From IMG/VR virus record IMGVR_UViG_3300005617_000004, positions 32,001 to 96,000 of that record: a stretch of DNA of 64,000 bases. One strand, given 5' to 3'. The notes below the pieces were generated by a model that ran no database searches, was not told where the DNA came from, and worked only from the letters and a program-made list of their open reading frames with translations. Of this stretch, positions 5,351 through 6,349 are shown piece after piece. Both the position numbers and the translations under genes were made by a program. Position 1 is the first letter of the stretch; each line of letters starts with the position of its first letter. This DNA is from a virus.

Positions 5351-5380
5351 TTGCAGTCGACTGTATATACGCGTATATAC
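5351..5380 (+). promoter_or_regulatory. Promoter overlapped by a perfect 18-bp palindromic operator
   Basis: TTGCAG-N17-TATATA; GTATATACGCGTATATAC at 5363-5380; ATG at 5387. Confidence 0.75.
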
Positions 5381-5386
5381 GGCAGC

Positions 5387-6349
5387 ATGGCCAAGAAACT
5401 CATCAGCCTGCGCATCGACCCTGGTCTCCATGACTGGTACCGCAACCGCGGCGCCGGATACCAGAACGAGATGGAGCAGGCACTGTTCACCTACAAGCGC
5501 GGCAACGCGCAGGAGCTCGCCACCATGCCTACCGACCTCGACGACTACGCTAAGAACAACCCCTGTGCCGTGTGCGGCGGTAAGGGAGTCAAGAAAGTAG
5601 GAAAGGGGAAGAAAGCCATACAGACGCCGTGCTCCAGCTGCCACGGGTCCGGCGGCCAGTCTTGGGAGTTGGTCGGGCAGGTGAACCCCAACTTCGGCAA
5701 GCCCGGCCAACCTTTCATCGTGTCGGTTGGCCAGGATGATGCGGAAAACGTGGAAGACGCCCCCGGCGCGGCAGGAGAGAAGACCGACGATGTCTTCGCC
5801 GGCACGTCACCTTTCTGCACCGTCAGGGACGCGAGGACGGGCAGCATTCGGCTGGAGCGCTCGTCGCAACCTCTGTACGACACCCAGCGCCAGGGCTCCA
5901 TCTACGACAAGCCGATGACCGCCCGTGAGTCGTATCGCGGTGCGCCGGACCCCATCGTGTTCTTCGCGACGCCCAACGGCCGCAGCGCGGCCCAGACCAA
6001 CCTCGGCACTGCTGGTCAGCTCAGCTGGCCCAAACGTTTTCATGTCCGCGCCGTACGGTTGCGGTTCTCCCACATCTGCGACTTGAGCGAAGCCTCCGTG
6101 ATGCTGCAGGTCGGCGAGAAGCTCTATCTGTCGATACCGGTCAAGAACATGGACCAGGAGCCCAACGACGAGCACACCAGCAAGAATCATGAGCTGCCGC
6201 CGCTGCGGTTCATCCACCGGCTGGCGATCCCGGTCTACATCCCGCCGGTCCAATATTTCGGCCTGACCCTGATCACCGGGTCGAAGCATCTCGGCGACGT
6301 GGTGGTCCGCGCCCAGCTCGACGGCCTGATGCTCAGGGAGATTGCGTAG
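5387..6349 (+). CDS. Fusion: BrnA-antitoxin-like RHH domain + CxxCxGxG zinc finger + QPLYD capsid-like domain
   Basis: KLISLRIDPGLHDWYRNRGAGYQ; CAVCGGKG...CSSCHGSG; C-terminal ~190 aa aligns with 3552-4121 (TAGQLSWPKRF, QVGEK, PPVQ, LREI). Confidence 0.8.
   Translation: MAKKLISLRIDPGLHDWYRNRGAGYQNEMEQALFTYKRGNAQELATMPTDLDDYAKNNPCAVCGGKGVKKVGKGKKAIQTPCSSCHGSGGQSWELVGQVNPNFGKPGQPFIVSVGQDDAENVEDAPGAAGEKTDDVFAGTSPFCTVRDARTGSIRLERSSQPLYDTQRQGSIYDKPMTARESYRGAPDPIVFFATPNGRSAAQTNLGTAGQLSWPKRFHVRAVRLRFSHICDLSEASVMLQVGEKLYLSIPVKNMDQEPNDEHTSKNHELPPLRFIHRLAIPVYIPPVQYFGLTLITGSKHLGDVVVRAQLDGLMLREIA

What the first reader, a model, noticed from the sequence alone, without database searches (positions are those of the whole stretch)
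5351..6349. DNA-binding regulator fused to a copy of the putative capsid protein, with its own palindromic operator
Seen: a BrnA-like RHH domain, a DnaJ-type zinc finger and a full-length paralog of the 3552-4121 protein in one ORF, inserted antisense within the structural operon. An 18-bp perfect palindrome GTATATACGCGTATATAC covers its -10 box, and GTACATGT occurs twice further upstream. No BrnT toxin is nearby. Inference: an autoregulated repressor that senses the capsid-subunit pool by co-assembly, ties the genome to the shell, or blocks assembly of superinfecting relatives. I know of no described capsid-fold/RHH fusion.
Basis: partly seen in the sequence, partly recalled or inferred. Interest (0 to 1): 0.85.

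Follow-up and report, generated by a model that had tools for sequence, protein, structure and literature searches.

The report
Repressor-like domain fused to capsid-like paralog
An uncultivated 110-kb soil virus carries an optional, self-contained gene cassette for a DNA-binding (ribbon-helix-helix) domain joined to a diverged copy of the virus's own jelly-roll, probably capsid, protein; related viruses have the same fusion, close strains lack it, and its role is untested.

Summary
ORF 5387-6349 (+) encodes four parts:
- a BrnA-type ribbon-helix-helix (RHH) domain;
- one CxxCxGxG x2 zinc knuckle;
- a disordered acidic linker of about 50 aa;
- a full-length jelly-roll paralog of the 3552-4121 protein (37% identity, E 5e-30).

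An 18-bp perfect palindrome (5363-5380) overlaps a promoter-like -10 and ends 6 nt before the ATG.

New here:
- **The fusion is not unique.** BrnA-RHH + jelly-roll proteins occur in at least three other protein clusters, one of them with the zinc knuckle. A fifth cluster carries an Arc-type RHH instead.
- **The promoter layout recurs.** A 97-kb relative has the fusion at the same antisense position, with the same layout and an 8+2+8 inverted repeat of different sequence.
- **The gene is optional.** Contigs from four other metagenome runs match the left flank almost exactly, 0-4 differences in 248-518 nt (the right flank about 95%), and join 5323 to 6354. They lack promoter, palindrome and ORF together.

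Best reading: an accessory, probably autoregulated DNA-binding protein whose effector domain derives from the virus's jelly-roll protein. The capsid role of that family is plausible (top fold matches Z 8-10) but unproven. Co-assembly, pool sensing and exclusion are untested. The scan noted this stretch once more, on the same genome.

The parts
5324..6353 (.). Strain-variable cassette of 1,030 bp: promoter, palindrome, the whole fusion ORF and 4 nt after its stop
   Evidence: Contigs of four runs from three studies join 5323 to 6354 with 36 other letters in between. The left flank is nearly identical: 0-4 differences in 248-518 nt.
5387..6349 (+). Fusion ORF, 320 aa, TAG stop
   Evidence: GC3 0.83. 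Start supported by orthologs.
5390..5491 (+). Ribbon-helix-helix domain, BrnA type (aa 2-35)
   Evidence: Pfam PF14384, 25.3 bits (gathering 26.1) here; 36-46 bits in orthologs.
5564..5653 (+). Zinc knuckle, two CxxCxGxG motifs (C60, C63, C82, C85)
   Evidence: Read from the sequence. DnaJ_CXXCXGXG E 6e-4, below gathering. Present in P0172, P0173 and P0174; absent in P0039 and P0046.
5654..5812 (+). Acidic linker, predicted disordered (aa 90-142)
   Evidence: AlphaFold2 pLDDT under 50 for residues 87-134.
5813..6346 (+). Jelly-roll domain, B clade of the QPLYD family (aa 143-320)
   Evidence: pLDDT above 90. BLASTP E 5e-30 to the A-type paralog. Fold matches SPMV Z 8.5 and SPV1 Z 8.3. Clade placement from the tree.
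5363..5380 (.). 18-bp perfect palindrome: two GTATATAC boxes 10 bp apart; candidate operator
   Evidence: Holds the only two TATATA in the genome. An analogous 8+2+8 inverted repeat lies at the same place in L006. As an RNA hairpin it is no better than shuffles, z -0.30.
5351..5379 (+). Promoter-like site: TTGCAG (5351-5356), 17 nt, TATATA (5374-5379), then 7 nt to the ATG. This would give a leaderless or near-leaderless mRNA.
   Evidence: Read. L006 has TTGCAA, 17 nt, TACATA, then 5 nt to the ATG. The consensus scan did not flag it.
5341..5348 (.). GTACATGT copy 2, inside the cassette
5296..5303 (.). GTACATGT copy 1, outside the cassette, 15 nt upstream of the - strand promoter's -35
   Evidence: Lies in the flank that cassette-less contigs also cover.
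5253..5281 (-). Divergent promoter-like site for the membrane-protein and A-type genes: TTGACA, 17 nt, TAGGGT
   Evidence: Read. Conserved as TTGACT, 17 nt, TAGAGT in L012. The consensus scan did not flag it.
4317..5150 (-). Membrane protein with GYVDA(R/K)AYQGTG repeats, transcribed divergently from the fusion; always next to the A-type gene in relatives
3552..4121 (-). A-type jelly-roll protein (189 aa from Met 8), the conserved core member of the family; probable capsid protein
   Evidence: 157 clusters at E up to 1e-3. AlphaFold2 pLDDT 88. Matches SPV1 Z 9.8, HHIV-2 Z 8.1, HCIV-1 and P23-77 VP17 Z 7.5. Terminator-like hairpins at 3526-3501 and 4298-4276.
18005..18856 (-). C-type paralog: jelly-roll domain behind an N-terminal extension with a CGCL motif
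6333..6602 (-). Small Cys-rich gene that converges on the fusion and overlaps it by 17 nt; its last six codons lie inside the cassette
   Evidence: No Pfam match.

Best explanation
Window 5324-6353 is an optional, self-contained accessory cassette, moron-like, sitting antisense in a variable slot of the virion-gene block of a 109.5-kb virus.

Its single product has an N-terminal BrnA-type ribbon-helix-helix (RHH) domain. I infer that this domain dimerises and binds the 18-bp palindrome, which is two GTATATAC boxes one helical turn apart. The palindrome overlaps the -10 of the gene's own promoter, so the protein would repress its own synthesis.

A zinc knuckle and a flexible acidic linker of about 50 aa connect the RHH to a complete jelly-roll domain. 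That domain descends from a duplication of the virus's conserved protein of about 190 aa, the probable capsid protein. I infer that the jelly-roll part supplies higher-order oligomerisation and/or contact with the A-type protein, so that DNA binding is coupled to the state of that protein.

Shown:
- the architecture;
- the paralogy;
- conservation of the fusion in other viruses;
- the conserved promoter and inverted-repeat layout;
- presence/absence polymorphism among close strains.

Inferred:
- DNA binding and autorepression;
- any contact with the A-type protein;
- the capsid role of the family.
For: Architecture and paralogy.

The fusion recurs:
- P0172 has RHH + zinc knuckle + jelly roll, 40% identity over the full length.
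- P0039 and P0046 have RHH + jelly roll.
- All three score above the BrnA_antitoxin gathering score.
- P0064 has an Arc-type RHH on the same B-clade domain and falls outside the BrnA-fusion clade in the tree.
- The BrnA fusions form a clade with 97/92 support, and 68 columns are invariant among six members at 41-46% identity to the window's protein.

Synteny: in L006 (96.8-kb record) the fusion sits at the same antisense position, between the membrane-protein gene and the ortholog of 7126-7611.

Promoter and operator:
- Window: TTGCAG, 17 nt, TATATA, with a perfect 18-bp palindrome across the spacer and -10.
- L006: TTGCAA, 17 nt, TACATA, with TGTACGTA-TC-TACGTACA across the same positions.
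- The box sequence differs while the geometry is kept, and the RHH beta-strand residues also differ (LISLRI against SITMRI).
- TATATA is found nowhere else in the genome.
- The RNA-hairpin alternative is no better than shuffles.

Accessory status:
- Four runs from three studies hold contigs that join 5323 to 6354.
- The closest relative with DNA (L012, A-type 93% identical) has a different antisense 77-aa gene with its own promoter in the same slot.
- A DTR-bounded relative of 87.6 kb has only the A-type member.
Against: - No experiment or RNA data exist.
- The window's own RHH match is just under Pfam's gathering score.
- The AlphaFold2 monomer models the N-terminus only as a helix at modest confidence.
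- An 18-bp palindrome is not rare by length alone.
- The promoter hexamers are my reading and were not flagged by the consensus scan.
- Only two independent DNA lineages were available for the operator comparison. L006-L009, L019 and L039 are one virus.
- B-clade jelly-roll proteins also exist without any RHH: P0056, P0057, P0175, P0176 and the second L006 copy. The jelly-roll part therefore has a role of its own that this model does not specify.
Confidence: 0.5

Rival explanations
1. Non-essential minor virion protein. The B-type jelly-roll domain takes a place in the shell, for example at special positions. Its N-terminal RHH and zinc knuckle hang inside on the long linker and bind the packaged genome, at the palindrome or non-specifically. 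This would tether DNA or mark it for encapsidation.
For: - The fusion point is the very N-terminus of a complete jelly-roll domain. [quoted passage not shown]
- Motifs shared with the A-type protein are kept: QPLYD, AGQLSWPKRF, GEKxYL, IPPVQxF, REI.
- The gene lies among genes for membrane-anchored, virion-like proteins.
- The palindrome is a unique site in the genome.
Against: - The gene is antisense to the block, with its own promoter.
- It is absent from close strains and from complete or near-complete relatives.
- If the virion has an internal membrane, the shell's inner face would not touch DNA (inference).
- The palindrome lies 37 kb from the record's ends, though those ends may only reflect a circular assembly.
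Confidence: 0.15
2. Weapon in conflicts between viruses. A capsid-protein look-alike, made from its own autoregulated promoter outside the late programme, co-assembles with and poisons or redirects shells of co-infecting relatives. In other words, superinfection exclusion or interference.
For: - Moron-like cassette in a variable slot that holds different antisense genes in different strains.
- Present or absent among close strains, as is usual for conflict genes (general knowledge).
- B-clade copies occur singly or doubled and with varied N-termini.
Against: - The virus's own A-type protein would be an equally good target, and no immunity feature is seen.
- The RHH is then explained only as a throttle.
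- No evidence of lysogeny beyond a serine recombinase gene.
Confidence: 0.15
3. Ordinary transcription factor with a beta-sandwich sensor domain. The QPLYD family is not a capsid protein at all but, for example, a cement, fibre or carbohydrate-binding module. The fusion is then simply an RHH regulator that borrowed a handy oligomerising or ligand-binding fold.
For: - Fold matches are moderate (Z 7-10). The lists also hold tail-fibre modules, carbohydrate-binding modules and GOLD domains at Z 6-7.
- No capsid family was matched by sequence.
- The related contigs are labelled Uroviricota in the Atlas rows.
Against: - The five best matches of the A-type model are all viral single-jelly-roll capsid proteins. 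Four of them come from membrane-containing viruses.
- The A-type gene is the most conserved gene of the block, is flanked by terminator-like hairpins, and always sits beside a membrane-protein gene.
- No HK97 capsid, Terminase_6N, FtsK or A32 family was found in the genome, or for three of those families in three relatives.
Confidence: 0.15
4. Decaying chimera without function.
For: Optional in close strains. No RNA evidence.
Against: - Intact 320-codon frame with GC3 0.83.
- A clade of fusions at about 40% identity with 68 invariant columns.
- Conserved promoter layout.
- Confidently folded domain.
Confidence: 0.03

Closest known systems
Ribbon-helix-helix autorepressors (P22 Arc and Mnt, CopG, the DNA-binding domain of antitoxin BrnA; Pfam clan Met_repress)
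   Same: Short N-terminal RHH. Palindromic or tandem boxes one helical turn apart over the gene's own promoter. A small self-contained gene.
   Different: The RHH is followed by a zinc knuckle, a 50-aa linker and a 180-aa jelly-roll domain copied from a virion-type protein. There is no toxin partner. DNA binding is not shown.
PutA, an RHH fused to a large non-DNA-binding functional domain that regulates a divergent promoter region
   Same: RHH at the N-terminus of a much larger protein with another activity. The gene lies next to a divergent promoter region. The idea that the large domain's state takes the protein off DNA.
   Different: No homology beyond the RHH fold class. The C-terminal part here is a jelly roll, not an enzyme. 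The switch is pure inference.
MS2/Qbeta coat protein as translational repressor and packaging nucleator
   Same: Concept only: a capsid-type subunit that also recognises one specific nucleic-acid site in its own genome.
   Different: MS2 uses RNA, a different fold and an essential coat protein. Here the site is DNA, the protein is a separate optional paralog and the reader domain is added on. Nothing is tested.
Single-jelly-roll capsid proteins of membrane-containing viruses (SPV1 VP4, HHIV-2, HCIV-1, P23-77 VP16/VP17)
   Same: Eight-stranded jelly roll of about 180 aa. Several paralogs per genome. Neighbouring membrane-protein genes.
   Different: Only fold-level similarity: Z 7.5-9.8, rmsd 4.2-5.2 A, identity about 10%. 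Genome about 100 kb. None of those capsid proteins carries an RHH, to my knowledge and in the two paper searches.
Phage morons: independently transcribed accessory genes inserted in late operons
   Same: Own promoter, placed between structural genes, present or absent among close strains, and a slot that holds different genes in different strains.
   Different: The cargo is a regulator-like copy of a structural protein rather than a host-fitness or defence gene.

Membership tests
BrnA_antitoxin-type RHH (PF14384, clan Met_repress) | Profile match at or above Pfam's gathering score | tested here: inconclusive
   The window protein scores 25.3 bits against 26.1. Orthologs P0172, P0039 and P0046 score 36.3, 37.1 and 46.2 bits, and they align with the window's N-terminus.
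BrnA_antitoxin-type RHH (PF14384, clan Met_repress) | Strand-helix-helix fold that dimerises | tested here: inconclusive
   The monomer AlphaFold2 model shows helix 12-45 at pLDDT 50-75 and no strand. A dimer was not modelled.
BrnT/BrnA type II toxin-antitoxin system | Adjacent BrnT (RelE-like) toxin gene | tested here: not met
   No PF04365 match in the whole 109.5-kb genome. Neighbours are a membrane protein and a Cys-rich small protein.
DnaJ cysteine-rich domain (PF00684) | Four CxxCxGxG motifs forming two zinc centres; profile above gathering | tested here: not met
   Only two motifs (C60/C63 and C82/C85). 20.4 bits against a gathering score of 32.7. It works like a single zinc knuckle and is not a DnaJ domain.
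QPLYD jelly-roll family of this virus group (no Pfam or PHROG entry) | Significant sequence similarity over the whole domain, with shared motifs | tested here: met
   BLASTP E 5e-30. Local HMM E 8e-48. B clade in the tree, with 100/97 support for B+C.
Single-jelly-roll viral capsid proteins | Eight-stranded jelly-roll fold close to solved capsid proteins | tested here: inconclusive
   Confident models (pLDDT 88, and above 90 for the domain). Best matches SPV1 Z 9.8 with 145 aligned residues, HHIV-2 Z 8.1, SPMV Z 8.5. The tool notes that best Z of 7-8 is common for unrelated models.
Single-jelly-roll viral capsid proteins | Forms the virion shell | not testable with these tools
   No isolate and no virion data.
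Moron-like accessory cassette | Own promoter and presence/absence polymorphism among close strains | tested here: met
   Joint 5323 to 6354 in contigs of four runs. Promoter-like hexamers are read from the sequence. A different antisense gene occupies the slot in L012.

The most novel reading that the evidence does not exclude
The protein is a DNA-level counterpart of the MS2 coat/operator pair in a so far undescribed group of roughly 100-kb viruses. These are probably membrane-containing and jelly-roll-shelled, and lack a recognisable terminase, portal, HK97 or A32 gene. In this reading a shell-compatible subunit reads one unique site in its own genome. Through co-assembly with the main jelly-roll protein, it either feeds the capsid-protein pool back onto transcription of the divergent membrane-protein/capsid operon or marks the genome for encapsidation.
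Probability: 0.15. Interest if true: 0.85.

Novelty: new variant of a known kind. Interest (0 to 1): 0.55.

Why it matters
RHH repressors are common. I found no report of one fused to a copy of a virus's own jelly-roll structural protein. That two different RHH types are joined to the same jelly-roll clade suggests the pairing is selected. If the jelly-roll part does contact the main structural protein, this would be a direct molecular link between virion assembly and gene control, or genome recognition, in a DNA virus. It could be tested with simple binding and reporter assays.

The cassette also marks a variable slot in the virion-gene block of a little-known virus group from soil, groundwater and bog samples, possibly infecting Planctomycetota. 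The optional nature of the gene limits the claim: whatever it does, the virus can do without it.

Tried and rejected
- **Complex prediction** of the A-type protein with the fusion's jelly-roll domain (residues 140-320): no verdict, score 0.18 against a mark of 0.32. This is no evidence either way.
- **The look-up of sequencing runs**: no RNA holder listed, so expression could not be examined.
The DNA around P0046, P0172, P0064 and P0056 could not be fetched. The metagenome and IMG/VR scans returned full-length fusions only from the L006 virus.
- **Sequence searches with no useful match**:
  - tblastn of the A-type protein against 50,697 phage records;
  - Pfam and PHROGs for the jelly-roll domain;
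  - PDB sequence searches.
- **Hallmark genes**: Pfam and PHROGs on about 30 of the largest proteins, plus six-frame searches for FtsK, Terminase_6N, Phage_capsid and Pox_A32, gave no virion hallmark gene. The virus type stays open.
- **Amber read-through**: the fusion ends in TAG and a tRNA with anticodon CUA lies at 2539-2615. Reading through adds 50 Arg/Cys-rich residues before a TGA, antisense to a real gene. Rejected.
- **RNA hairpin at the palindrome**: -8.6 kcal/mol, z -0.30 against shuffles. Rejected in favour of a DNA site.
- **Palindrome length as evidence**: rejected.
- **ATG 5300 as the start**: rejected (see observation check).
- **Atlas look-alikes** of the A-type protein: the nearest named clusters carry PM2 capsid P2_N/P2_C at score 0.78, below the level that counts. 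A lead only.
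Full report
**Setting.** The window is bases 32001-96000 of a 109,520-bp virus record with direct terminal repeats and about 65% G+C. Its best DNA holder is a rhizosphere metagenome.

**Gene and start.** The ORF reads 5387-6349 on the + strand, 320 aa. A longer call from ATG 5300 exists in the protein database (P0004). I prefer 5387 for these reasons:
- Orthologs begin MP(K/L)KK... at the equivalent Met.
- The RHH profile match starts at residue 2.
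- ATG 5300 lies outside the unit that is present or absent among strains.

**Domains.**
- Residues 2-35 match BrnA_antitoxin (E 2e-5, 25.3 bits, gathering 26.1).
- Residues 60-89 carry two CxxCxGxG motifs (DnaJ_CXXCXGXG E 6e-4, below gathering).
- AlphaFold2 with a 41-row alignment gives a disordered stretch at 87-134 and a confident jelly roll at 143-320, pLDDT above 90.
- The C-terminal part aligns with the product of 3552-4142 (-) at 37% identity, E 5e-30. The alignment runs from that protein's first conserved residues (PVFRTVKDARSG...) to its C-terminal REIQ, so it is a full-length copy.
Orthologs and the Atlas record start there.

**The family.** The A-type protein has 157 cluster representatives at E up to 1e-3, mostly 180-210 aa. 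It has no Pfam, PHROG, phage-record or PDB sequence match.
- Its model (pLDDT 88) is a jelly roll.
- The five best matches in a search of 48,161 chains are viral single-jelly-roll capsid proteins:
  - SPV1, Z 9.8, 145 residues aligned, rmsd 4.2;
  - HHIV-2, Z 8.1;
  - satellite panicum mosaic virus, HCIV-1 and P23-77 VP17, Z 7.5 each.
- Below them come tail-fibre, GOLD and carbohydrate-binding modules at Z 6-7. The tool warns that a best Z of 7-8 is common. The fold is established; the capsid role is not.
- Context fits a virion protein:
  - The gene always follows a membrane-protein gene.
  - It is flanked by terminator-like hairpins.
  - The block is rich in tail-anchored membrane proteins.
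  - No HK97 capsid, terminase, portal, FtsK or A32 family turned up in this genome, nor (for Terminase_6N, Phage_capsid and Pox_A32) in three relatives.
- The genome has three full members: A (3552-4121), B (the fusion) and C (18005-18856). A weak 19-residue remnant lies at 2618-2845.
- In a maximum-likelihood tree, B and C together form a clade apart from the A-types (100/97).

**Is the fusion unique? No.** The first, word-limited search found only the protein itself. The exhaustive search and a profile search found more:
- P0172: 311 aa, RHH + zinc knuckle + jelly roll, 40% identity, full coverage.
- P0039: 300 aa, RHH without the knuckle.
- P0046: 269 aa, RHH without the knuckle.
- P0173 and P0174: N-terminally cut proteins with the knuckle.

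P0172, P0039 and P0046 pass the BrnA_antitoxin gathering score at 36-46 bits.

P0064 carries an Arc-type RHH instead (23.3 bits, gathering 20.4). It falls outside the BrnA-fusion clade, so an RHH was joined to this jelly-roll clade twice, or was swapped.

The BrnA fusions form a clade (97/92) in which the window's protein branches first. Six members at 41-46% identity to the window's protein share 68 invariant columns.

B-clade proteins also exist without an RHH: P0056 and P0176 with an acidic helical N-terminus, P0057 and P0175 with none, and a second copy right after the fusion in L006.

**Synteny and promoter.** In L006 (IMG/VR record of 96.8 kb) the order is:
1. A-type gene;
2. membrane-protein gene;
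3. fusion on the opposite strand;
4. second B copy;
5. orthologs of 7126-7611, 7631-8050, 8085-8753 and the transglutaminase-like 8757-11324.

The same virus is also binned in a Planctomycetota bog MAG.

Upstream of both fusion genes I read the same layout:
- Window: TTGCAG (5351-5356), 17 nt, TATATA (5374-5379), 7 nt, ATG.
- L006: TTGCAA, 17 nt, TACATA, 5 nt, ATG.

In both, an 18-bp inverted repeat spans the spacer and the -10. The window has GTATATAC-GC-GTATATAC and L006 has TGTACGTA-TC-TACGTACA.

The sequence has changed but the geometry is kept, as expected for an operator evolving with its reader. The RHH strand also differs (LISLRI against SITMRI).

Caveats:
- Only two independent DNA lineages were available.
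- The consensus scan flagged no promoter.
- Palindrome length alone is not beyond chance.

In favour:
- TATATA occurs nowhere else in 109.5 kb.
- An RNA hairpin reading is no better than shuffles.

A second promoter-like site points the other way, towards the membrane-protein and A-type genes: TTGACA, 17 nt, TAGGGT at 5281-5253. It is conserved in L012.

**The gene is optional.** Logan contigs of four runs were laid on 3500-7300: two groundwater runs of one study and two rhizosphere runs of two other studies.
- They match the left flank almost perfectly, 0-4 differences in 248-518 nt. The right flank matches at about 95%.
- Every run has a contig that joins 5323 to 6354, with 36 other letters in place of 1,030 bp.
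- The missing piece is exactly GTACATGT copy 2, the promoter, the palindrome, the ORF and 4 nt after its stop.
- The 36 letters resemble the intergenic sequence of L012.

L012 has an A-type protein 93% identical. It carries a different antisense gene (77 aa, with its own -35/-10 and Shine-Dalgarno sequence) in the same slot.

Family members per related record:
| Record | Size | Members |
|---|---|---|
| L011 record, DTR-bounded | 87.6 kb | A only |
| L013 record | 95 kb | A plus a weaker second match that I take to be C-like, from its score only |
| L006 record | 96.8 kb | four |

So the slot is variable, and the fusion is an accessory cassette rather than a core virion gene.

**Mechanism.** The descriptive part is well supported. 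For function I commit to an autoregulated DNA-binding protein.
- The RHH would dimerise and bind the two boxes one helical turn apart over its own -10. This is standard for Arc, Mnt, CopG and antitoxins (general knowledge).
- The jelly-roll domain would give higher-order assembly and possibly contact with the A-type protein.

Rivals are a dispensable DNA-tethering minor virion protein, an interference protein aimed at related viruses, and a plain regulator whose beta-sandwich has nothing to do with capsids. The complex prediction gave no verdict and no RNA data were found, so these cannot be separated here.

The refuter 'fusion is unique' fails. 'Autoregulated repressor' is strengthened. The three proposed roles of the jelly-roll part remain open, and an essential role is now unlikely.

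**Novelty.** This is a new domain architecture on a known regulatory theme, in a poorly understood virus group. Two paper searches found no RHH/jelly-roll capsid fusion.

Noticed in passing
window 2539-2615 and 2838-3182: A tRNA with anticodon CUA (ARAGORN labels it 'Pyl'), which would read amber codons. It lies just before a PTH2-like ORF (about 2859-3182, +) that has no ATG, GTG or TTG after an in-frame TAG at 2838. TAG ends 24 of 137 likely genes, so there is no wholesale recoding.
   Followed up: partly
window 2618-2845 (+): A 75-aa ORF right after that tRNA holds YEAIIQPLYDS, a 19-residue match to the jelly-roll family (HMM E 0.04). It may be a remnant of a fourth copy, or chance.
   Followed up: partly
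window 18005-18856 (-): Third paralog (C type): jelly-roll domain behind an N-terminal extension with a conserved GxCGCL(M/L)TQW motif. Orthologs P0069 and P0042 exist, and the L006 record holds a copy too.
   Followed up: partly
L012 8452-8685 (-): In the closest relative, the slot that holds the fusion here holds an unrelated 77-aa Cys/His-rich antisense gene with a clear promoter and Shine-Dalgarno sequence. The slot looks like a hot spot for accessory genes.
   Followed up: partly
window 6333-6602 (-): A small Cys-rich (zinc-ribbon-like) gene overlaps the fusion's 3' end by 17 nt. Its last six codons lie in the cassette. In cassette-less strains it would end ...EDW-APA instead of ...EDW-TTTQSP.
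   Followed up: partly
whole genome G000 and records of L006, L011, L013: No Terminase_6N, HK97 Phage_capsid or Pox_A32 match in any of the four records, and no FtsK match in G000. The large proteins at window 27306-29816, 30482-31960, 33329-36148 and 43311-45263 have no Pfam or PHROG match. The virion type of this roughly 100-kb virus group is unknown.
   Followed up: partly
window 30482-31960 (+): A 492-aa beta-rich, Thr/Gly/Ala-rich protein with many viral look-alike clusters in the Atlas. It has weak links to concanavalin-like (GH16) folds. It is a candidate large jelly-roll-type structural protein, or a fibre.
   Followed up: partly
G000:C1:23512-24036 (+), outside the window; L006 5537-6511 (+): Serine recombinase (Resolvase PF00239, 58 bits) conserved near the block. 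No tyrosine integrase. The lifestyle (temperate or not) is open.
   Followed up: partly
L039 and L040: The only matches among 185,579 species genomes are contigs binned in two Planctomycetota MAGs, one of them from a bog. This is a host lead from binning only.
   Followed up: no
window 11333-14494 (-): Four adjacent genes for extremely basic proteins with repeated NPRRRRK-like motifs, two of them with N-terminal hydrophobic anchors. Conserved in part in L006 and L012.
   Followed up: no
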